In this document: piece after piece, positions 3,498-64,000 of the stretch
Position numbering within the stretch: the first letter of the stretch is position 1
Layout: each line of letters opens with the position of its first letter
Notes under the pieces: model-generated
What the model was told of the DNA's origin: nothing
Database searches by the model: none
Seen by the model: only the letters and a program-made list of their open reading frames with translations
Made by a program: the position numbers and the translations under genes
Sequence record: PZ386972.1
Length of the DNA: 64,000 bases
Reading direction: 5' to 3' (one strand)
Origin: a phage

Positions 3498-3926
3498 TTA
3501 AGCAGTTAAACCTGGGATCATATACCCGAAACGTCGAAGTTTCTGAATCCCATCATTTACTTCTTCCGGTGAGTAAGACCAACCGTAACGTTCATTAACC
3601 TGAAAACCAGGAGATTCACTAGTTTTATAGTTAACAACAAGGCGATGCTTAGCAGGCATAAACAGCTTATAGTTTAACGCAAAAACTAAGCCCATTTCAT
3701 CTAACTCTTTCCAGCCGACAATTTCTTCAAGACCCTCCTCTACCTGAACAATTAAACCAATACAGGGAGCCTCATCAATATCATCTTTAAAAGCAAAGGA
3801 GATTTCGTTATTCTCACACCATATTTTCAAAGAGTTAATAGCCTCATTATATAGGCTAGCTGGGAGAGTACGCCAAAAGTTAACCAAAATTGGGTTAGCT
3901 TCTTTAGAGAATACATTATTGAACAT
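3498..3926 (-). CDS. hypothetical protein, paralog of 3096..3488
   Basis: ORF track; tandem arrangement with 10 nt spacing; shared motifs with neighbour. Confidence 0.5.
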   Translation of the reverse strand: MFNNVFSKEANPILVNFWRTLPASLYNEAINSLKIWCENNEISFAFKDDIDEAPCIGLIVQVEEGLEEIVGWKELDEMGLVFALNYKLFMPAKHRLVVNYKTSESPGFQVNERYGWSYSPEEVNDGIQKLRRFGYMIPGLTA

Positions 3927-3928
3927 AT

Positions 3929-4435
3929 TTACACCTTAAATTGCTGTAAGGATTTACACATTTCAAGATCCGGACTAAATTCTAGCATATAGCTAACAGC
4001 TTTTAAATCTTGAAGATTTATCCCAGTCCTACCGTTGACTATAACCGTTGGATACTGATACATCATAGCACCCGCATCATCAAGCACACACCAATGTTTG
4101 AGCTTATGCTTTTCAACGAAGCGAAGAACAGAATTACCCCTAGATAATCCACCTCCAGTAAAATCCGTTGTACCAAGAAAGCGATCGATAAGACCTAATC
4201 CGGTCATAATCTGAACGTTCTCCATCTCATTTCTAACAGAGAACCAAGATGATACCCCAACAATCATTATTGGGGAAGGACGAATAAAGTCCTGAAAAGC
4301 CTTGAGAAGTGGTTTGAAAACCCAGTCACTTCCAAAGAAAATCTTTTCATCATCAGGTGCATGATGGTGGGAGATGCTCGAATTGAGCACCCCATCAATA
4401 TCTAGAAAAATAATTGGAGTATTACTTATTTCCAT
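3929..4435 (-). CDS. HAD-superfamily phosphatase (nucleotidase-like)
   Basis: N-terminal FLDIDGVL motif (DxDxV/T) typical of HAD hydrolases. Confidence 0.5.
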   Translation of the reverse strand: MEISNTPIIFLDIDGVLNSSISHHHAPDDEKIFFGSDWVFKPLLKAFQDFIRPSPIMIVGVSSWFSVRNEMENVQIMTGLGLIDRFLGTTDFTGGGLSRGNSVLRFVEKHKLKHWCVLDDAGAMMYQYPTVIVNGRTGINLQDLKAVSYMLEFSPDLEMCKSLQQFKV

Positions 4436-4604
4436 TTTTGTTCCTTTCTAAGAACGTATCATACTCAACCGTATCAACATATATAACACCATAGTCATCG
4501 GATTTATAGTCCATTTCCCACAGCTCACAGCGATAGCACCAACTACCATCAGCCCATACAAATATATCATCGGGATGTGTATAAACAGATTTAACTATGG
4601 ACAT
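4422..4604 (-). CDS. small hypothetical protein with WCYR motif
   Basis: ORF track; motif DIFVWADGSWCYR shared with next ORF. Confidence 0.35.
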   Translation of the reverse strand: MSIVKSVYTHPDDIFVWADGSWCYRCELWEMDYKSDDYGVIYVDTVEYDTFLERNKNGNK

Positions 4605-4780
4605 ACCTGTTTCTCCTCATCTCCAGAGGAGAACCACATATTATCCGTAGTATAGATAATTTTATATGTGTATCCCAACCGTTTTCTTACACTAGGAAAC
4701 CTGTAGGCAAACCTATAACACCAAGTGCCAGACTCAGTTATAAAAATATCCCATTCATTATTTCTTGCTTCTCGACACAT
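4595..4780 (-). CDS. small hypothetical protein with WCYR motif (paralog of 4422..4604)
   Basis: ORF track; motif DIFITESGTWCYR. Confidence 0.35.
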   Translation of the reverse strand: MCREARNNEWDIFITESGTWCYRFAYRFPSVRKRLGYTYKIIYTTDNMWFSSGDEEKQVCP

Positions 4781-5576
4781 AAGGTCTACCCTCTAAATGA
4801 GCTTCTACACGAGCAATAAAATCAGGATCACTGAAAGCATCTACCGCACCCTTACTCCAATAAGGGATACTACGTTCTTCCAGCTGGTACATCTCACTAC
4901 GAGTCATACCCTGATAGCCTGGCTCCGCTGCTAGGGCACTATCATAGTAGTTAACTACCATAAATTTCGCAGCAGTCCTATTAAGAACAGGAAATAATTC
5001 CCAGTAGAAGTTAATTACTTGGTTAGAGCAACCAACCACAACGATCATATCTTGGCTGGTAATACCATCAAAAACATTGTACATTTCTGCATATGCTGGA
5101 GCATGCTCTCCAAAGAAGATTACATTAGGTTTAACCCATTTATAATCATCTGGATCAATAGAAGTATATCCTACATCAATAACCAGTTTATTGCTACTAT
5201 TGTAGCTATCAGCTACAACAACCTCTTTTAAATATCCGTGAATGTGCAGAATGTCACTATGTGGAACGCCAGCACGCTCAATAAGGTCATCGACGTTGGT
5301 AGTCAAGTTTACTACTTGACCTGGATATTGTTTATACCATTCACCAATACGCAAATGCGCAAGATTGGGTTCAACAGTTTTTAGCTCTTCACGACGCTTG
5401 TTGTAAAACATATGGGTTTTATGATAAAAATTACCACGAAAGGCATGAATATTACATACTTCTTCTAGATCATAATCATCCCACAATGCTTTACCACTAG
5501 CAGTATCAGTACGAAAAGCTCGTACACCACTTTCAACACTCAAACCTGCACCGCTAATAATAATTAATCTACGCAT
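4758..5576 (-). CDS. Sir2-family NAD-dependent deacylase/ADP-ribosyltransferase-like protein
   Basis: N-terminal IISGAGLSVESGVRAFR matches the sirtuin GAGxSxxSGIxxFR NAD-binding signature. Confidence 0.65.
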   Translation of the reverse strand: MRRLIIISGAGLSVESGVRAFRTDTASGKALWDDYDLEEVCNIHAFRGNFYHKTHMFYNKRREELKTVEPNLAHLRIGEWYKQYPGQVVNLTTNVDDLIERAGVPHSDILHIHGYLKEVVVADSYNSSNKLVIDVGYTSIDPDDYKWVKPNVIFFGEHAPAYAEMYNVFDGITSQDMIVVVGCSNQVINFYWELFPVLNRTAAKFMVVNYYDSALAAEPGYQGMTRSEMYQLEERSIPYWSKGAVDAFSDPDFIARVEAHLEGRPYVSRSKK

Positions 5577-56846: not shown

Positions 56847-58511
56847 ATGATTATTTCCGCAGAAAAACAAACCGTTATCCTGAAAATGGCCGCTGACTTT
56901 AATTTCTATGGTAAACGTCTGCGCGCCACTAAACTGGAGGTCTGCGACGATATATCAAAAGCGGTATATGATACTACAAAACACTCGACCGCTATCTGCG
57001 ACTGGCTGGAAGCAAATAAACCAGTTAAACCGAAAGCGGCGAAAGTAGCAAAAGCCATTAAAAACGATGAGCGTCCAGAAGCGGCGGGGATTGTTTCTAG
57101 CACGGTTGAACAGTGGGAAGTAAAACAAGGCAAACGCTTTATTATTACGTCGATTCAGAATAATACTTTCCCGCATAAAAACTTTTTAGCCTCATTGGAA
57201 AAATTCGCTGAATATATCGGTGCTGATTTGCTTGTTTCTAAGTATATTTATAATAAAAACGGCTTCCAAAATGGCGAGGGTGCGGATGGAATCAAATATG
57301 ATTCCGCGTTCGATAAATATATTTGCAGCAAAAACGTGTTTTTAAATAACCGCCGTTTTGCTTTCATGGCTGAAATTAACGTGTTACCAACCGCAGACTA
57401 TCCGCTTTCTGGATTCGCTGAAACTGCAACGGCGCTTAATCTGGAAGGTCTGGCAATCGGTCACGCTAAAATCACCGCTGAAAGCGTGCCAGCTCTCAAA
57501 GGTGAAGTAGTACGCCGTATGTATTCAACGGGCACGGCAACGCTCAAAAACTACATTCAGCAAAAAGCAGGGCAAAAAGCGGAGGCGCTTCATAACTTTG
57601 GTGCGCTGATTGTCGAGTTCGATGATGATGGTGAGTTTTTTGTGCGCCAGCTTGAAACAATGGATGAAAGCGGGGTGTTTTATGATCTGAATGTTTGCGC
57701 TACTCCCGCAGGATGCTATGAAACATCGGGGCATGTGCTAGGCTTGCAATATGGTGACATACACGCCGAAAAACTGGATGATGATTGTGCCGTTGCGTCA
57801 TGGGCTGGCGAAAATAGCTTGCTTGATATTCTTAAACCAAAATATCAGTTTATCCATGACGTGCATGATTTTACATCCCGCAATCATCATAATCGTGCAT
57901 CCGGTGTATTCCTAGCTAAACAATACGCCGCCGGACGTGATAAAGTTCTGGATGATCTTATCGATACTGGTCGCGTGCTGGAATCGATGGAACGTGATTT
58001 TAGTCAAACGATTATTGTGGAATCTAACCATGATTTAGCGTTATCCCGCTGGTTGGATGATCGTAATGCTAACATTAAAGACGATCCAGCAAACGCGGAA
58101 CTATATCACCGCCTGAATGCCGCGATTTACGGAGCTATTGCAGAAAAAGACGATACTTTCAACGTGCTAGATTATGCATTGCGCAAGGTTGCAGGTTGTG
58201 AGTTTAACGCCATTTTCCTAACAACTGACCAATCATTTAAAATTGCAGGCATCGAGTGTGGCGTACACGGTCACAACGGCATTAACGGCAGCCGTGGCAA
58301 TCCTAAACAATTTAAGAAATTGGGCAAATTGAACACCGGACACACTCACACCGCCAGCATTTACGGCGGGGTATATACCGCTGGCGTTGCTGGTAGTCTC
58401 GATATGGGTTACAACGTTGGCGCGTCAAGCTGGACGCAAACGCATTTAATTACCTATGCAAACGGGCAGCGCACTTTGATCGATTTTAAGAATGGTAAAT
58501 TCTTTGCGTAA
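56847..58511 (+). CDS. A1: A1-like pre-early protein, metallophosphoesterase-fold nuclease
   Basis: 554 aa; calcineurin-like motifs GDIHAE, ESNHD, GHTHT; size and placement beside dmp-like gene match T5 A1 (from memory). Confidence 0.6.
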   Translation: MIISAEKQTVILKMAADFNFYGKRLRATKLEVCDDISKAVYDTTKHSTAICDWLEANKPVKPKAAKVAKAIKNDERPEAAGIVSSTVEQWEVKQGKRFIITSIQNNTFPHKNFLASLEKFAEYIGADLLVSKYIYNKNGFQNGEGADGIKYDSAFDKYICSKNVFLNNRRFAFMAEINVLPTADYPLSGFAETATALNLEGLAIGHAKITAESVPALKGEVVRRMYSTGTATLKNYIQQKAGQKAEALHNFGALIVEFDDDGEFFVRQLETMDESGVFYDLNVCATPAGCYETSGHVLGLQYGDIHAEKLDDDCAVASWAGENSLLDILKPKYQFIHDVHDFTSRNHHNRASGVFLAKQYAAGRDKVLDDLIDTGRVLESMERDFSQTIIVESNHDLALSRWLDDRNANIKDDPANAELYHRLNAAIYGAIAEKDDTFNVLDYALRKVAGCEFNAIFLTTDQSFKIAGIECGVHGHNGINGSRGNPKQFKKLGKLNTGHTHTASIYGGVYTAGVAGSLDMGYNVGASSWTQTHLITYANGQRTLIDFKNGKFFA

Positions 58512-58564
58512 TTAAATTATTCCCTAGCGGCTTGAAATATAGCCGCTATCACAGGAGTCAAAAA

Positions 58565-58822
58565 ATGAAAGTTACATTACCCAAAACATTGGACGAAAAA
58601 GTATTCATTTCACCGGATGAAATGGAATCTGATAAAGTTTACAGCTTCGGGCCTATCCTAGCCGCCAAAACTAATACGGATGGTATTATTTCCGTCGATT
58701 CCCGTGATAACGATATTGTCCCTTTTGATGATGATGGTGCTTTTTATGAGTGGCTAAGCGATAATAATTTACCCGTAAACGGTGAATTAACGCCATACCA
58801 GATGCAGATTATTATCAAATAA
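58565..58822 (+). CDS. hypothetical acidic protein
   Basis: Internal ATG of track ORF 58532..58822 with GGAG RBS. Confidence 0.4.
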   Translation: MKVTLPKTLDEKVFISPDEMESDKVYSFGPILAAKTNTDGIISVDSRDNDIVPFDDDGAFYEWLSDNNLPVNGELTPYQMQIIIK

Positions 58823-58860
58823 ATTAAATCCATTATCAAACTAACTGGAGTTTTATAAAT

Positions 58861-59259
58861 ATGAAAAAGCAAAATATCCCATTCGATCGCGCTCAGTCCT
58901 CAATTGTTCTGGTTTATTCTAATGGCGAACGTTACCACGTCGAGGCGGGGCACGTTATTGATGACCTATTAGATTTCAATGACGCTTTGCAGGTTACTAC
59001 CTTTGCCTATACGCAAGGCAAACTAACCAGCCATATTAAGGCAAAAGGCGTTTATGTTGACACGGTGAAACAAGAAACGGTTATCATCGATGCCGTAAAA
59101 TCCGGCCTAGCCTTTGCAGTTGTCGCGCCTTGCCTCGCTTGCCTTGATGATCAATTGATTAGTGCAAAGGTCTACACATGTGCGGGGATTCGTTCTAGCG
59201 TATCCGGTGAGGATGTTAGTTTTATCGCTGATGCTCTCGCTTTTGGTCTGGCGTTCTAA
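58861..59259 (+). CDS. hypothetical protein (132 aa; possibly A2-like)
   Basis: ORF track; position between A1-like and dmp-like genes. Confidence 0.35.
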   Translation: MKKQNIPFDRAQSSIVLVYSNGERYHVEAGHVIDDLLDFNDALQVTTFAYTQGKLTSHIKAKGVYVDTVKQETVIIDAVKSGLAFAVVAPCLACLDDQLISAKVYTCAGIRSSVSGEDVSFIADALAFGLAF

Positions 59260-59273
59260 TAGTTAATTGAACA

Positions 59274-59306
59274 TAGCCCACTAATAAAATATAATTAGTG
59301 GGCTAG
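59274..59306 (+). terminator. hairpin, possible terminator
   Basis: AGCCCACTAAT...ATTAGTGGGCT inverted repeat, no clear U-run. Confidence 0.35.
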
Positions 59307-59346
59307 ATTGAATTAATCTAATCCCTTAAATGGAGAACGTAACAAA

Positions 59347-60081
59347 ATGAATCAAGTTAAAACGAATATTACCCGTAATTTCCCGCATATTTCCCGCGTC
59401 ATGATTTGGGATTTAGACGGCACTATCGTTAATTCCTTCCATCGTGTAGCGCCTTGCTTTGATAGCGAGGGCAATTTAGATTTAAATAAGTATAAAAATG
59501 AAGCCTGCAAACATCATTTAATAATGCAAGATACTTTATTGCCATTAGTTGAATATATGCGCCAGTGCATGAATGACGCAAATACTTTAAACATTATTTG
59601 CACCGCTCGACTAATGAGCAAGTCGGACTATTATTATTTGCGCAAACAAGGCTTGCGCGGTCGTGGTAATAGTAATATTCGCGTGTTTTCCCGTGATACA
59701 CTGCATAAATATTTTGAGGCTGATAAAGTTAGCGAAATATACCACAGCAAGGACGCAGTATATAAATCTTATTATTTTGAATTATTTAAACAACTATATC
59801 CGAACGCTGATTTTACAATGATTGATGATCATAAAGGCGTGCTATCAGCGGCAGCATCATACGGATTTAAAACGCTGGACGCGCAAGCCGTTAACGATAT
59901 TCTATCAATCGGCGTGACATTAATAGGTGAAACCTTTATTGATGAATCTCTCGACGATGATAATGATTATCAATTCCTAGCTGACCGCTTAAAGCTATGC
60001 TGGGAAGGTATGACCGAGGAAGAACGCGCAGAATATAGTTGCAGCCCGCAACAATATATCGAGAAATTAAAAGTTGCGTAA
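59347..60081 (+). CDS. dmp: HAD-type 5'-deoxyribonucleotidase (dmp-like)
   Basis: 244 aa with WDLDGTI HAD motif; size matches T5 dmp (from memory). Confidence 0.6.
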   Translation: MNQVKTNITRNFPHISRVMIWDLDGTIVNSFHRVAPCFDSEGNLDLNKYKNEACKHHLIMQDTLLPLVEYMRQCMNDANTLNIICTARLMSKSDYYYLRKQGLRGRGNSNIRVFSRDTLHKYFEADKVSEIYHSKDAVYKSYYFELFKQLYPNADFTMIDDHKGVLSAAASYGFKTLDAQAVNDILSIGVTLIGETFIDESLDDDNDYQFLADRLKLCWEGMTEEERAEYSCSPQQYIEKLKVA

Positions 60082-60099
60082 TAATTAAAGTTGAAATAG

Positions 60100-60136
60100 T
60101 TTCATCCTGCAATTAAAATGATTGCAGGATGAAACA
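60100..60136. terminator. bidirectional terminator hairpin between convergent gene blocks
   Basis: GTTTCATCCTGCAAT...ATTGCAGGATGAAAC perfect 15-bp inverted repeat. Confidence 0.65.
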
Positions 60137-60245
60137 ATTACCCTGCTAATAGTAACGGGGGTGGCGGTTAGCAGACTAAGTATTTTCGCCGGAGGCAGTG
60201 GACACACCTCCATGTGTAATCTTATGAAATTTGGCAAAAGTCAGA

Positions 60246-60491
60246 TTAGCGCATAGAAGGGTCATCAAACCGATGTTCAGGTCTAAACTCACGAAATCTC
60301 TTCCGCGACGCCCGAGATCCATCCGACCACTCCCGCTCAAACTCCACACGTTTCTCGTCAAACTTCCGCTCCCTTTCCGCAATCTCCCGCGTCACTCCCG
60401 CAATATATTCCCGATGTTTATTGATTGCCGCAGTTGTCCCGAAAACTCCCGCGAGTATCCCGATAATAAAAGCAATTATAATACTAAACAT
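60246..60491 (-). CDS. small single-pass membrane protein
   Basis: ORF track; N-terminal TM helix. Confidence 0.4.
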   Translation of the reverse strand: MFSIIIAFIIGILAGVFGTTAAINKHREYIAGVTREIAERERKFDEKRVEFEREWSDGSRASRKRFREFRPEHRFDDPSMR

Positions 60492-60681
60492 CTAATTCCT
60501 TCTCAATTTGCAGAATACGGGTGCTATCACAACGTTGCAGTAGTACTAGCTTTTCTAGAATAACTTGTTGTTGTTGTTTCACCTGAGCTTCTAGAGTTTT
60601 TAGGCGGAGATACACGACACGAGAGACAATGAGGATTACCCATACTAATATTACTATTAGTGTAACTGCCGCTTCCATCAT
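60484..60681 (-). CDS. small single-pass membrane protein (paralog family)
   Basis: ORF track; TM helix plus coiled-coil tail. Confidence 0.4.
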   Translation of the reverse strand: MMEAAVTLIVILVWVILIVSRVVYLRLKTLEAQVKQQQQVILEKLVLLQRCDSTRILQIEKELDV

Positions 60682-60784
60682 TTACGTTTCCCCGATAGTA
60701 AGGTTTCGATTCTAGCTAAGTGATTATCTAAAATACACTGCCCAATAATCACAATCCCCAGTAGTGCAATAATTACCCATTCCA

Positions 60785-60970
60785 TTATTTACGCTCCTCT
60801 AATAAAGTTTCAATTCTAGATAGTCTATTGCTCAACTGCATTAATTTAATTTCTGTTTGGGTTACAGAGGTATCTATTACACGTAAGCCTATAAAGAGAA
60901 GTATCAATAAGACGAATATGCCAATAATTACCCATTCCATTAAATCCACCCCGCCATAGCTGCTAACCAA
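60785..60970 (-). CDS. small single-pass membrane protein (paralog family, MEWVII N-terminus)
   Basis: ORF track; an unlisted 34-aa sibling MEWVIIALLGIVIIG... lies at about 60690-60790. Confidence 0.4.
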   Translation of the reverse strand: MVSSYGGVDLMEWVIIGIFVLLILLFIGLRVIDTSVTQTEIKLMQLSNRLSRIETLLEERK

Positions 60971-61015
60971 AAACCTACGAAAATTAGGAATAATACAAAA
61001 CCAAATCCGTAAATA

Positions 61016-61348
61016 TTAATCCACGCTTCGTACACTTCTCCGCGCCTGTTCTTTCTTTTGTTTGACATATCTTTCATGCTCCCGTAAATGTGGTATTTGG
61101 AATATTCTAGCAATTGCACGAACCATTATAACTGTTCCTATGAGATCCATCATTTCATCAAATCCAGATTCTTCTAGAAGAAATGATGTTCCCATTACAT
61201 CTTCCATAGTGTCTTGTATGACGTCCTGAATGATTTCATTAACTGCATTGTGAACCGCTTTTGCTCTAGGAGTCATCTCAAGTGGCATAGGTTCCTGGAA
61301 GGGCTTCTCATTTTCTTGCATAGTGTTTTCTGCCAGTACACCATCCAA
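61016..61348 (-). CDS. hypothetical protein
   Basis: ORF track. Confidence 0.4.
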   Translation of the reverse strand: MDGVLAENTMQENEKPFQEPMPLEMTPRAKAVHNAVNEIIQDVIQDTMEDVMGTSFLLEESGFDEMMDLIGTVIMVRAIARIFQIPHLREHERYVKQKKEQARRSVRSVD

Positions 61349-61395
61349 GAAATAAAAAATTTAGTTTACTTGGATGTCTTTTTGTTTTATACTAA

Positions 61396-61662
61396 TTACA
61401 GGTAATTAGATTGTTCTAGTTTAAATTTACAATTACCATATTTAAGGTCAAACTGACTGAGATCCCACCATCCAAACTTAGTACGGAGCTGTACTACTGG
61501 AAAGCGATCTCCCTTAATACGAACTTTTTGAACCTTGAGACCGTAATGTTCTTCTCCCGCACCACCAAAAGATTTTACAAATCCCGTACAAAATGGTTTG
61601 GGAGCAGGTGCACAACCAGATAACATAACTGCGGCAACTAGTGCAATCACAAACTTTTTCAT
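61396..61662 (-). CDS. llp: Llp-like lipoprotein (candidate receptor-blocking superinfection-exclusion protein)
   Basis: Signal peptide with lipobox LSGC; small size; divergent from the adjacent receptor-binding-protein-like gene, as for T5 llp/oad. Confidence 0.5.
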   Translation of the reverse strand: MKKFVIALVAAVMLSGCAPAPKPFCTGFVKSFGGAGEEHYGLKVQKVRIKGDRFPVVQLRTKFGWWDLSQFDLKYGNCKFKLEQSNYL

Positions 61663-61747
61663 ATTTATCTCTCCATTTCTAATTTATGAATCTATTATAG
61701 CAAAATAGAGGGATGAAAGCAAATACATTTTTATAATAGGAGATTAT

Positions 61748-63508
61748 ATGGGTTTTTTCGCTGGAAAATATAGTGATGGTAAAACTGTATTATCACTAAA
61801 TACTGCTAGTGGTGGAGATATTAATGCTCATAAAAACCCTAGTACTAATACTATTTTTCATTCTGATATGCCCTTCGTATTAGTAGAAAGCACTTATGAG
61901 AGTGCATTAAGTAGTGCTGGGAATGGTTTCTATGTATGCCAGATGCCTTCTGCAATAGCTAACTTAAAGAGTAATGATCCTGGTAGAGTTATACTAACAG
62001 CTATAGAAGTTAATGGTACTCATCGTGGTTTTTTGAATGGTACTCAATCTCAAGTTGGGCAGTTTCTTTCTTCTACTCAGGCCGATCCTTTTAGATCATT
62101 TGCTAGCTTAAGTCAAACTGCTGGATTTGCTTTTGGTAATAGTCTAGCTTCAGGTACTTATTCCTATAATAGTTCTCTAGGGCATGAAGAATCTATAGCT
62201 AGAAGTGGTACTGGCGGTACTGTACTACATAGTACTTATCATGGTGTTGTAAGACCAGGTGGTGGTGCACCTGTAGGTGCTACTGTAGCTGAAACTTTCA
62301 AACAACTAGGGTATCCTATAGGAAGTACTTCTGTTCCTATATCTTCAGGTGATACGTACTATTGGGATCCTAACTGGATGGCTCCAATGGGGGCTGGTAA
62401 ACGTGGCCATAACTGGTTTTATGTATGTAATTCTAATATTAGGGGGTATGCTGGATACAAACAAACAATCCCTAGCAATATAGTACAGCACTTTAGTGAT
62501 GGGGGGTATAGATATGTTTGTAGAGGTTCTACTACTAAGTTAGTAAGTCAATCAGCTAATACAAAAATAGTTCAAGATGGCTACGGAGTAACCCCTACAA
62601 AAGTTATATGGTATGTACTAAACCTAAGGTATTCTAATGGTGGTATGTCTGTTTCTAGCAATCCCTTTACAGGTTCTGACATAATAATTTCTCCGTCCAA
62701 CTTTACTATTAAGGGAGTTAAGTTATCTACTACTGGTTGGAAGTTTATTAATCAGAATGCTCTAGGGAATCTAAGTTCTCGTGCTGATATGGAGTATATT
62801 GGAGTAAACGCTGCGCATGGTGGAGTGTTTGGGGATACTACTGGAAGATGTGAATTTGTATGCTCTAACAAAGGATCTATATGGGCACCAGTCAACTATA
62901 GTGGTACAAGAGCACAACTTAGTATTTATAAGTTCTCTGCTAGTAAGACCTGGTATGTAAACTCTAATAATAATACTATTGGTAATGAGAATGGTGTTGT
63001 CTGGGGACCTTCATCAATACCTTTACGCCTATTATCCGGTAATGTGGCTAGTGCCTATATTGGTAATGATATTACTCCGACCTATCCGGGCACTGGTAAT
63101 GTTTATAAATCCCTAGCAACAGTTGGATTAGGCCTACCCAATAATAACTCTACTGTTATACTAACTAGTGAAATATTATCGGGTAACCTTAATGTTGCTG
63201 GGTTACCAGTAAATACGTGGAATGGTAGTGTTTTTCAGGTGCAAGGAAGAAAATCACAAAGTTATACAGGAGGAGATGCTATATTTCACCAAATTTTAGT
63301 TCTTCCTCCCGGAAAGTTAGTACCTTTCCACACTACCTCCGCCTATAAATATACTCCAGATAGCGGAGCTTTTAGTAGAAACAGTTTTATATATACAATA
63401 AAAAATCTTGGTAATGGTAATGCAGAATTAGGTGTTATACTACACGTTAGTTTAGGTTCCGCAGTTTTCTTACCGAGACTACGAGTAACAGTTCAACGCC
63501 TTACCTAA
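61748..63508 (+). CDS. receptor-binding tail protein (pb5/Oad-like), by synteny
   Basis: 586 aa, Gly/Ser/Thr/Asn-rich; adjacent and divergent to llp-like gene. Confidence 0.45.
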
Positions 63509-63518
63509 AGGAGGAAAT

Positions 63519-64000
63519 ATGGCAAATGATGTATTAGTACCAGATCTTATGTCCCCTGAAGGGATGGATGTGATTGAAGCTTATTTACAGTGTGGCAGCG
63601 ATGTGCCTTCTGCCGCACGTAGTCTTGGAATGTCCGAAATTGCTTTCCGAGATATTATGAATCGTAGTGAAGTTAAGAACTACTTAAACGATATTTTTAT
63701 GGAAAGTGGTTTCCGTAACAGAGACCGTTTGTTCGGTGTTCTAGATGAAGTTATTAAACGTAAGCTGGAGGAACTGGAAGAAACTGGCATGGGTTCTGAC
63801 CAGGATATTATGGATATTCTCTGGAAGGCACATAAAATGAAGATGGAAGAGATGAAAATGATGGTGGAGCTAGAAAAAGCTAAAGCTGCTGTCCGAGCTC
63901 CTGCTAGTCAGACCAATATCCAGAATAATATTATTGCTGGAGCTGGGGATCAAAACTACATGGACTTAATTACTTCCCTAGCTACTGGAGGTAAGAAGTA
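63519..64000 (+). CDS. HTH-containing protein (possible terminase small subunit or DNA-binding protein), 3' end beyond window
   Basis: Reading frame from ATG 63519 with GGAGG RBS runs to window end; [16 protein letters not shown] helix-turn-helix-like segment. Confidence 0.35.

What the first reader, a model, noticed from the sequence alone, without database searches (positions are those of the whole stretch)
61396..63508. Divergent Llp-like lipoprotein and receptor-binding-protein-like gene pair
An 88-aa lipoprotein (lipobox LSGC) is transcribed divergently from a 586-aa Gly/Ser/Asn-rich protein, mirroring the T5 llp-oad arrangement in which the lipoprotein blocks the phage's own receptor. 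The pair probably defines host range, and the sequence could indicate which outer-membrane receptor is used.
Basis: partly seen in the sequence, partly recalled or inferred. Interest (0 to 1): 0.45.

Follow-up and report, generated by a model that had tools for sequence, protein, structure and literature searches.

The report
T5-like phage BtuB receptor-binding/blocking gene pair
This is the well-known pair of genes by which T5-like phages bind their outer-membrane receptor and then block it in the infected cell; here it is the BF23/DT57C version that targets the vitamin B12 transporter BtuB, so it is real but ordinary.

Summary
Both ORFs exist exactly as described: an 88-aa lipoprotein (61396..61662, minus strand, lipobox LSGC) and, 85 bp away on the other strand, a 586-aa protein (61748..63508, plus strand). 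The window is a T5-like phage (Tequintavirus). The large protein is the tail-tip receptor-binding protein (pb5/Oad/Hrs family). It is 97.4% identical to DT57C Hrs, 99% to BB1 and EASG3, 69.5% to BF23 Hrs, 31% to T5 pb5 and 27% to the FepA-type proteins of H8 and S124. The lipoprotein differs by one residue in 88 from BF23 Llp, and is 97.7% identical to DT57C Llp, which has been shown to block BF23 and DT57C infection but not T5. The receptor is therefore almost certainly BtuB. This divergent binding/blocking module is a published hallmark of T5-like phages, so the finding is already known and of low interest. One side observation: a conserved 101-aa gene next to llp (61016..61321) is labelled "receptor blocking protein" in some records. 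It is not a lipoprotein, and it occupies the llp position in FepA-type phages.

The parts
61396..61662 (-). llp: 88-aa receptor-blocking (superinfection-exclusion) lipoprotein precursor, BF23 type
   Evidence: ORF. PHROG 1119 E=5e-26. 87/88 identical to BF23 Llp, and 86/88 to both DT57C and BB1 Llp. Cys17, Cys25 and Cys78 are invariant in the homologue alignment. The AF2 model has pLDDT 82.7, and its best fold match is the phiR2-01 receptor-blocking protein (E=8.9e-9, TM 0.79).
61612..61662 (-). Lipoprotein signal peptide (aa 1-16, MKKFVIALVAAVMLSG) plus the lipidated Cys17. The lipobox L-S-G-C is encoded at 61612..61623.
   Evidence: Pfam LPAM_1 covers residues 1-18, E=5.1e-5, above the gathering score. 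The lipoprotein scan with positive controls also finds it. Coordinates were read from the sequence.
61663..61747 (.). 85-bp divergent intergenic control region. On the llp (minus) strand: -35-like TTGCTT (61722..61717), 17-nt spacer, -10 TATAAT (61699..61694), and Shine-Dalgarno GGAGAG (61674..61669). On the rbp (plus) strand: Shine-Dalgarno AGGAG (61738-61742), preceded by TATAAT (61732-61737).
   Evidence: Sequence. The alignment with DT57C, BB1, BF23 and T5 has 92% mean column identity, and AAGCAA and CTATTATA are invariant in all five. T5 and BF23 records annotate divergent promoters in the same interval. The generic promoter scan did not list this site because the -35 matches only 3 of 6 positions, and its hit count was not above shuffles. 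The promoter assignment is therefore an inference from conservation.
61748..63508 (+). rbp (hrs/oad homologue): 586-aa tail-tip receptor-binding protein of the BtuB-specific DT57C subtype
   Evidence: ORF. PHROG 4815 E=8.6e-255 over the full length. PDB T5 pb5 8b14_B/8a8c_B E~9e-51. Identity: 100% to phage PS3-1 and 99.0% to EASG3; 99.2% BB1, 97.4% DT57C, 69.5% BF23, 30.5% T5; 27% H8 and S124. It is followed directly by terS (63519 to the window end, PHROG 3802 E=2.9e-90), as in all T5-like phages.

Best explanation
The pair is the receptor-binding/receptor-blocking module of a T5-like (Tequintavirus) phage, in its BF23/DT57C form directed at the TonB-dependent vitamin B12 transporter BtuB. 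The 586-aa protein is the pb5/Hrs homologue carried at the tip of the central tail fibre. Binding it to BtuB commits the virion to irreversible adsorption and triggers DNA ejection. The 88-aa protein is made as a lipoprotein precursor and is probably expressed early from a sigma-70-type promoter in the shared 85-bp intergenic region. It is then lipidated at Cys17 and sorted to the outer membrane. There it inactivates BtuB as a phage receptor, which prevents superinfection by BtuB-dependent T5-like phages and stops progeny being lost on cell debris. By analogy with T5 Llp and FhuA, it probably binds the periplasmic face and plug of the transporter and closes extracellular loops allosterically. 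What is shown here: gene identity, family membership, the lipobox, near-identity to experimentally characterised proteins, and synteny. What is shown in the literature for near-identical proteins: BtuB dependence of DT57C, and exclusion of BF23 and DT57C but not T5 by DT57C Llp. What is inferred: that these properties carry over to this phage, the early/late timing, and the periplasmic allosteric mechanism, which has been solved only for T5 Llp-FhuA.
For: RBP: PHROG 4815 E=8.6e-255. T5 pb5 structures E~9e-51. 97.4% identical to DT57C Hrs and 69.5% to BF23 Hrs, against 27-31% to FhuA- and FepA-type RBPs. The three RBP clusters are reported to predict receptor specificity (PMC8594841). BF23 RBP is reported to cluster with EASG3/HASG4 (PMC10644984), and the EASG3 RBP is 99% identical to this one. 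Llp: one substitution against BF23 Llp and two against DT57C Llp. Cloned DT57C llp lowered plating of BF23 and DT57C-like phages more than 100-fold without affecting T5, and btuB-inactivated mutants resist DT57C (PMC4728585). Lipobox: Pfam LPAM_1. Synteny llp(-)/rbp(+)/terS(+) is identical to T5, BF23, DT57C and BB1, and the intergenic region is conserved. Mechanistic analogy: the FhuA-Llp crystal structure shows periplasmic binding and reverse allostery (PMC9586334). T5 Llp and this Llp fall in the same PHROG 1119 over their full length and share the pattern of a lipid Cys plus two further Cys.
Against: There is no experiment on this particular phage. The RBP has 15 substitutions relative to DT57C, and the Llp carries N77 where all 7 database clusters and BF23/DT57C have D, right next to the conserved Cys78. 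No identical Llp exists in the phage collection. The periplasmic-allostery mechanism is extrapolated from a protein only 23-30% identical. Foldseek against the PDB did not recover T5 Llp or any significant match, and no BtuB-Llp structure turned up in the literature search. The promoter call rests on conservation and a weak -35, and the generic scan was at chance level.
Confidence: 0.93

Rival explanations
1. The module is a T5-like binding/blocking pair, but it is directed at a different TonB-dependent transporter, either FepA as the first reader implied for 'DT57C-type' or FhuA.
For: All three receptor classes share the same gene layout and a conserved RBP N-terminus. The RBP region around aa 100-200 is mosaic and diverges strongly even from BF23 (34-60% identity per 50-aa window), so specificity could in principle drift.
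Against: The RBP is only 27% identical to the FepA-type proteins (H8, S124) and 31% to the FhuA-type (T5, S131), against 97% to DT57C, which is experimentally BtuB-dependent. The Llp is 98.9% identical to the BtuB blocker of BF23. The FepA-type loci carry no lipoprotein gene at all.
Confidence: 0.03
2. The lipoprotein is a generic Cor-type exclusion lipoprotein, or an unrelated membrane moron, and has no functional link to the adjacent RBP's receptor. The pairing would then be only positional.
For: RefSeq names such genes 'Cor superinfection exclusion protein', and PHROG 1119 merges Cor, T5 Llp and BF23-type Llp. Golomidova et al. place a recombination point between hrs and llp, which shows the two genes can be exchanged separately.
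Against: The same paper shows that the BF23-type Llp still protects against DT57C, whose RBP is 97% identical to this one. The NCBIfam lambdoid Cor model is not met: 16 bits against a cutoff of 31, and only the signal peptide aligns.
Confidence: 0.03

Closest known systems
Phage DT57C / DT571/2 hrs (rbp)-llp module (Golomidova et al. 2016, PMC4728585)
   Same: Same gene order, orientation and lengths (586 aa and 88 aa). RBP 97.4% and Llp 97.7% identical, with a nearly identical intergenic region. BtuB was shown to be the terminal receptor, and Llp was shown to exclude BF23 and DT57C.
   Different: 15 substitutions in the RBP and 2 in Llp. The window also has an extra 101-aa gene (61016..61321) just beyond llp that DT57C lacks.
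Phage BF23 hrs-llp module (Mondigler et al. 2006; genome OR083247, PMC10644984)
   Same: Llp is identical except for D77N. The layout and intergenic promoter region are the same, and the receptor is BtuB.
   Different: The RBP is only 69.5% identical, in a mosaic pattern: 88-90% in the first 100 aa, falling to 34% around aa 150-200. This is the recombinant configuration already described for DT57C.
Phage T5 oad (pb5)-llp module, with FhuA-pb5 and FhuA-Llp structures (van den Berg et al. 2022, PMC9586334)
   Same: The same divergent architecture sits next to terS. The RBP is homologous over its full length (E~9e-51 to PDB pb5). Both Llp proteins are small lipoproteins of PHROG 1119 with a lipid Cys plus two further Cys.
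   Different: The receptor is FhuA, not BtuB. The RBP is 30.5% identical and Llp 23%, and DT57C-type Llp does not protect against T5.
Phage H8 / S124 FepA-type RBP locus
   Same: The RBP is a homologue at the same genomic position upstream of terS.
   Different: The RBP is 27% identical. No lipoprotein gene lies beside it. The gene in the llp position is instead a homologue of window ORF 61016..61321.

Membership tests
T5-like receptor-binding tail protein (pb5/Oad/Hrs; PHROG 4815) | Full-length sequence homology to pb5/Hrs | tested here: met
   PHROG 4815 E=8.6e-255, protein residues 1-586 against profile positions 1-650. PDB pb5 8b14_B E=8.8e-51. 433 phage records cover at least 80% of the query.
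T5-like receptor-binding tail protein (pb5/Oad/Hrs; PHROG 4815) | [quoted passage not shown] | tested here: met
   terS starts at 63519, 10 bp after the rbp stop (PHROG 3802 E=2.9e-90). The order is the same in T5, BF23, DT57C and BB1.
T5-like receptor-binding tail protein (pb5/Oad/Hrs; PHROG 4815) | Located at the tip of the central tail fibre, where it triggers DNA ejection on receptor binding | not testable with these tools
   This needs virion proteomics or cryo-EM and in-vitro ejection assays.
BtuB-specific RBP cluster of Markadamsvirinae | Clusters by sequence with RBPs of phages shown to use BtuB (BF23, DT57C, EPS7, phiR2-01) and not with the FhuA or FepA clusters | tested here: met
   Identity is 97% to DT57C and 69% to BF23, against 31% to T5, 31% to S131, and 27% to H8 and S124. 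Cluster membership is reported as predictive of receptor (PMC8594841).
BtuB-specific RBP cluster of Markadamsvirinae | Infection depends on BtuB | not testable with these tools
   Shown for DT57C (97.4% identical RBP) using btuB mutants (PMC4728585). Not tested for this phage.
BF23-type Llp receptor-blocking lipoprotein | Lipoprotein signal peptide with a lipobox and the +1 Cys | tested here: met
   N-terminus MKKFVIALVAAVMLSG|C. Pfam LPAM_1 23.9 bits against a cutoff of 20. Also found by the lipoprotein scan.
BF23-type Llp receptor-blocking lipoprotein | Sequence identity to the characterised BF23 and DT57C Llp | tested here: met
   87/88 identical to BF23 and 86/88 to DT57C.
BF23-type Llp receptor-blocking lipoprotein | Adjacent to the RBP gene and transcribed divergently from it | tested here: met
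   The two genes are separated by 85 bp on opposite strands. This arrangement is described as the hallmark of the module (PMC8624392).
BF23-type Llp receptor-blocking lipoprotein | Expression makes cells resistant to BtuB-dependent T5-like phages | not testable with these tools
   Shown for DT57C Llp, with a more than 100-fold drop in EOP for BF23 and DT57C and none for T5 (PMC4728585).
Cor exclusion lipoprotein of lambdoid/T1-like phages (NCBIfam NF047972) | Score above the curated cutoff of the Cor equivalog model | tested here: not met
   16 bits against a cutoff of 31, and only residues 1-35 (the signal peptide region) align. The relationship is visible only at the remote-homology level: PHROG 1119, and a weak fold match to a Cor-like protein at E=5e-3, TM 0.49.
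FepA-type (H8/S124) RBP locus | RBP clusters with H8 and S124 | tested here: not met
   27% identity.

The most novel reading that the evidence does not exclude
The conserved 101-aa non-lipoprotein gene immediately beyond llp (61016..61321, PHROG 16810) occupies the llp position in FepA-type phages, which have no lipoprotein there. It could be a second, mechanistically different exclusion or receptor-masking factor. If so, this phage would carry two exclusion genes. A smaller possibility is that the unique D77N change next to Cys78 in Llp, or the 15 RBP substitutions, alter the fit between blocker and receptor.
Probability: 0.05. Interest if true: 0.5.

Novelty: already known. Interest (0 to 1): 0.08.

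Why it matters
The result assigns this phage's terminal receptor (BtuB) and its superinfection-exclusion gene with high confidence. That is useful for annotation, for designing phage cocktails (combining phages that use different receptors), and for predicting cross-resistance. It adds nothing conceptually new, because the module, its divergent layout, its recombinant BF23-Llp/DT57C-Hrs configuration and its receptor are all published.

Tried and rejected
(1) Pfam and NCBIfam give nothing for the RBP, only a chance-level DUF4678 hit. The family is captured only by PHROGs and the PDB.

(2) phmmer of Llp against PDB sequences returned only chance hits such as ovomucoid, with E of 0.2 or worse.

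(3) Foldseek of the Llp AF2 model against the PDB found nothing with E of 0.001 or better, and T5 Llp was not recovered. A fold-level link to T5 Llp could therefore not be demonstrated. The T5 paper itself notes that AF2 models of free Llp differ from the bound form.

(4) The generic promoter/terminator scan of 60900-64000 found no more sites than shuffled sequence. The llp promoter proposal rests on conservation instead.

(5) My first two lipoprotein regex scans were flawed. One search considered only ATG-type starts, and one search failed its positive controls. Only the corrected scan is used.

(6) The FepA hypothesis was rejected on identity grounds.

(7) The H8 paper (PMC1951831) is not held in the library.

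(8) The homologue search for Llp returned only 7 clusters, so the structure prediction used a shallow alignment.

Full report
OBSERVATION. One is an 88-aa ORF at 61396..61662 on the minus strand, starting MKKFVIALVAAVMLSGC. The other is a 586-aa ORF at 61748..63508 on the plus strand. They are separated by 85 bp and transcribed divergently. The lipobox is supported by Pfam LPAM_1 above its gathering score. A lipoprotein scan whose positive controls worked also picks out this ORF. The large protein contains 12.1% Gly, 11.8% Ser, 8.0% Thr and 8.0% Asn. Both are clearly real genes. PHROG 4815 'receptor binding tail protein' scores E=8.6e-255 over the full length, and PHROG 1119 'Cor superinfection exclusion protein' scores E=5e-26.

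CONTEXT. The window belongs to a T5-like phage (Demerecviridae, Tequintavirus). The 3-kb region around the finding matches 443 phage records. It is 98% identical at the nucleotide level to Salmonella phages vB_Si_CECAV_FGS009 and PS3-1 and to Escherichia phage BB1, and 95.3% identical to DT57C and DT571/2. In those records the same two genes are annotated llp/receptor-blocking protein and rbp/receptor-binding protein. Over the last 25 kb of the window, the best genomes are only about 92-94% identical. This suggests a mosaic relative rather than a re-isolate of a deposited phage. The local order is A1 (56847-58511), dmp (59347-60081), small membrane-protein genes on the minus strand, llp (-), rbp (+) and terS (63519 to the window end; PHROG 3802). 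This is the reverse complement of the right end of T5 and BF23 running into the terminal repeat.

WHAT THE LARGE PROTEIN IS. It is the pb5/Oad/Hrs-type receptor-binding protein. It matches the two PDB sequences of T5 pb5 (8b14_B, 8a8c_B) at E~9e-51. By tblastn it is 100% identical to the PS3-1 protein and 99.0% to EASG3. By global alignment it is 99.2% identical to BB1, 97.4% to DT57C, 69.5% to BF23 Hrs and 30.5% to T5 pb5. Against the remaining references it is 31% identical to S131, 27% to H8 and S124, and 29% to Gostya9. Identity to BF23 is mosaic: 88-90% in the first 100 residues, dropping to 34% around residues 150-200. Golomidova et al. describe exactly this pattern for DT57C against BF23. 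RBPs of the Markadamsvirinae fall into three clusters (BtuB, FhuA, FepA), and cluster membership is reported to predict the terminal receptor (PMC8594841). This protein is unambiguously in the BtuB cluster.

WHAT THE SMALL PROTEIN IS. It is a BF23-type Llp. It differs from BF23 Llp at one residue (N77 instead of D77) and from DT57C and BB1 Llp at two residues each. Across the 8-sequence alignment of the window protein and the 7 homologue clusters found, Cys17 (the lipidated residue), Cys25 and Cys78 are invariant. This parallels the lipid Cys plus the Cys11-Cys58 disulphide of mature T5 Llp (PMC9586334). Pairwise identity to T5 Llp is only 23-30%, and the literature calls the two non-homologous. 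Even so, both hit the same PHROG 1119 over their full length. The NCBIfam lambdoid Cor model is not met (16 bits against a cutoff of 31). An AlphaFold2 model (mean pLDDT 82.7, above 90 in the core) is a small beta-rich domain. Foldseek finds nothing significant in the PDB. In BFVD the top match is the phiR2-01 receptor-blocking protein (E=8.9e-9, TM 0.79), from another BtuB-dependent T5-like phage. A weak match to a Cor-like exclusion protein follows (E=5e-3).

FUNCTIONAL EVIDENCE FROM NEAR-IDENTICAL PROTEINS. These are literature results, not tests made here. Cloned DT57C llp reduced plating of BF23 and of the DT57C-like isolates more than 100-fold and had no effect on T5. Mutants selected for resistance to an LTF-less DT57C derivative carried inactivated btuB and were also BF23-resistant. 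The authors concluded that DT57C and DT571/2 use BtuB (PMC4728585). BF23 has long been known to use BtuB and to block it with Llp (PMC10644984). The divergent binding/blocking arrangement is described as a hallmark of these modules (PMC8624392).

REGULATORY REGION. The 85-bp spacer is almost identical in BF23, DT57C and BB1, and its core is shared with T5. Read on the llp strand it contains TTGCTT (61722..61717), a 17-nt spacer, TATAAT (61699..61694), and then GGAGAG (61674..61669) six bases before the ATG. The elements AAGCAA and CTATTATA are invariant in all five phages. T5 and BF23 records annotate divergent promoters in this interval. The generic scan did not call this site, because the -35 matches only 3 of 6 positions, and it found no excess of promoter-like sites overall. 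The promoter assignment and the early-llp/late-rbp timing are therefore inferences from conservation and from T5 literature.

MECHANISM. The RBP at the tail tip binds BtuB, which commits the phage to irreversible adsorption and DNA ejection. Llp is exported, lipidated at Cys17 and anchored in the outer membrane. It inactivates BtuB as a receptor, which blocks superinfection and prevents loss of progeny on debris. For T5, the FhuA-Llp crystal structure shows that Llp binds the periplasmic face and plug of the transporter. This drives two extracellular loops inward over the pb5 site, and the authors propose the mechanism is general for TonB-dependent transporters (PMC9586334). I adopt this as the most likely mechanism for BtuB as well, but it is extrapolated.

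'DT57C-type (FepA)' is wrong: DT57C uses BtuB, and FepA is the receptor of H8 and S124. 'Defines host range' is too strong. In DT57C and DT571/2, which share the terminal receptor, the lateral tail fibres and the O-antigen determine host range. The ltf genes are not in this window.

SIDE OBSERVATION. Between llp and the T5.159-like membrane gene lies a 101-aa ORF (61016..61321, minus strand; PHROG 16810, function unknown). DT57C, BF23 and T5 lack it, but it is full-length in about 225 T5-like records. It evolves under purifying selection, with dN/dS of about 0.17-0.24 against BB1, S124 and H8. It has no signal peptide or lipobox. Its N-terminal part is acidic, it has a moderately hydrophobic stretch (maximum Kyte-Doolittle 19-residue mean 1.46) and a basic tail, and no Pfam or NCBIfam family matches. 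In S124 and BB1 it is annotated 'receptor blocking protein' or 'T5 Llp-like'. In S124 it lies directly divergent from the FepA-type RBP, where llp would be. The S124, H8 and Gostya9 loci contain no lipoprotein ORF at all, whereas the window, T5, BF23, DT57C and S131 loci each contain exactly one, which is Llp. The 'Llp-like' label therefore appears to be purely positional. The protein is 77% identical between phages whose RBPs are only 27% identical, which argues against a receptor-specific role. Its function remains open.

VERDICT. The receptor is BtuB. The finding is a textbook, already published module with near-identical characterised relatives, so interest is low.

Noticed in passing
window 61016..61321 (-): A 101-aa conserved ORF (PHROG 16810, function unknown) lies between llp and the T5.159-like gene. 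It is absent from DT57C, BF23 and T5 but full-length in about 225 T5-like records. dN/dS is about 0.17-0.24, so it is a real gene. It is not a lipoprotein, yet S124 and BB1 annotate it as 'receptor blocking / T5 Llp-like protein'. In FepA-type S124 it occupies the llp position next to the RBP.
   Followed up: partly
L008 (S124), L009 (H8), L005 (Gostya9): The FepA-type and Gostya9-type RBP loci contain no lipoprotein ORF in the fetched regions. The same scan finds exactly one (Llp) in the window, T5, BF23, DT57C and S131 loci. How these phages achieve superinfection exclusion, if they do, is unclear.
   Followed up: partly
window 61430..61432 (Llp codon 77): Llp has Asn77 where BF23, DT57C and all 7 database homologue clusters have Asp, directly before the invariant Cys78. 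No phage record carries an identical Llp; the best is 98.9%.
   Followed up: partly
L003 (BB1) 3754-5526 compared with window 61748..63508: The BB1 RBP equals the window RBP plus a 4-aa tandem duplication (QADP) at residue 111 and a G303S change. This is a small indel polymorphism in the RBP's variable N-terminal half.
   Followed up: no
window ~56847-61400: Pre-early terminal-repeat genes (A1 at 56847-58511, dmp at 59347-60081) directly adjoin the small membrane genes, llp and rbp. This is the reverse complement of the right end of T5/BF23 entering the terminal repeat. Whether the source record is a collapsed-repeat or permuted assembly was not examined. terS (63519 onward) runs off the window end.
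   Followed up: no
literature: PMC12980165 (phage Cit2, OP745948): The paper reports the Cit2 RBP as 96.9% identical to T5 pb5 and also 73.2% identical to DT57C. These figures are mutually incompatible, because T5 and DT57C RBPs are 31% identical. Cit2 matches this window's llp-rbp region at 81% nucleotide identity, so Cit2 is probably BtuB-type rather than FhuA-type as that paper concludes.
   Followed up: partly
window 39001-64000: Over this 25-kb stretch the best phage genomes reach only about 92-94% identity at 88-92% coverage, although the llp-rbp region itself is about 98% identical to several phages. This suggests a mosaic Tequintavirus near or below the 95% species threshold.
   Followed up: no
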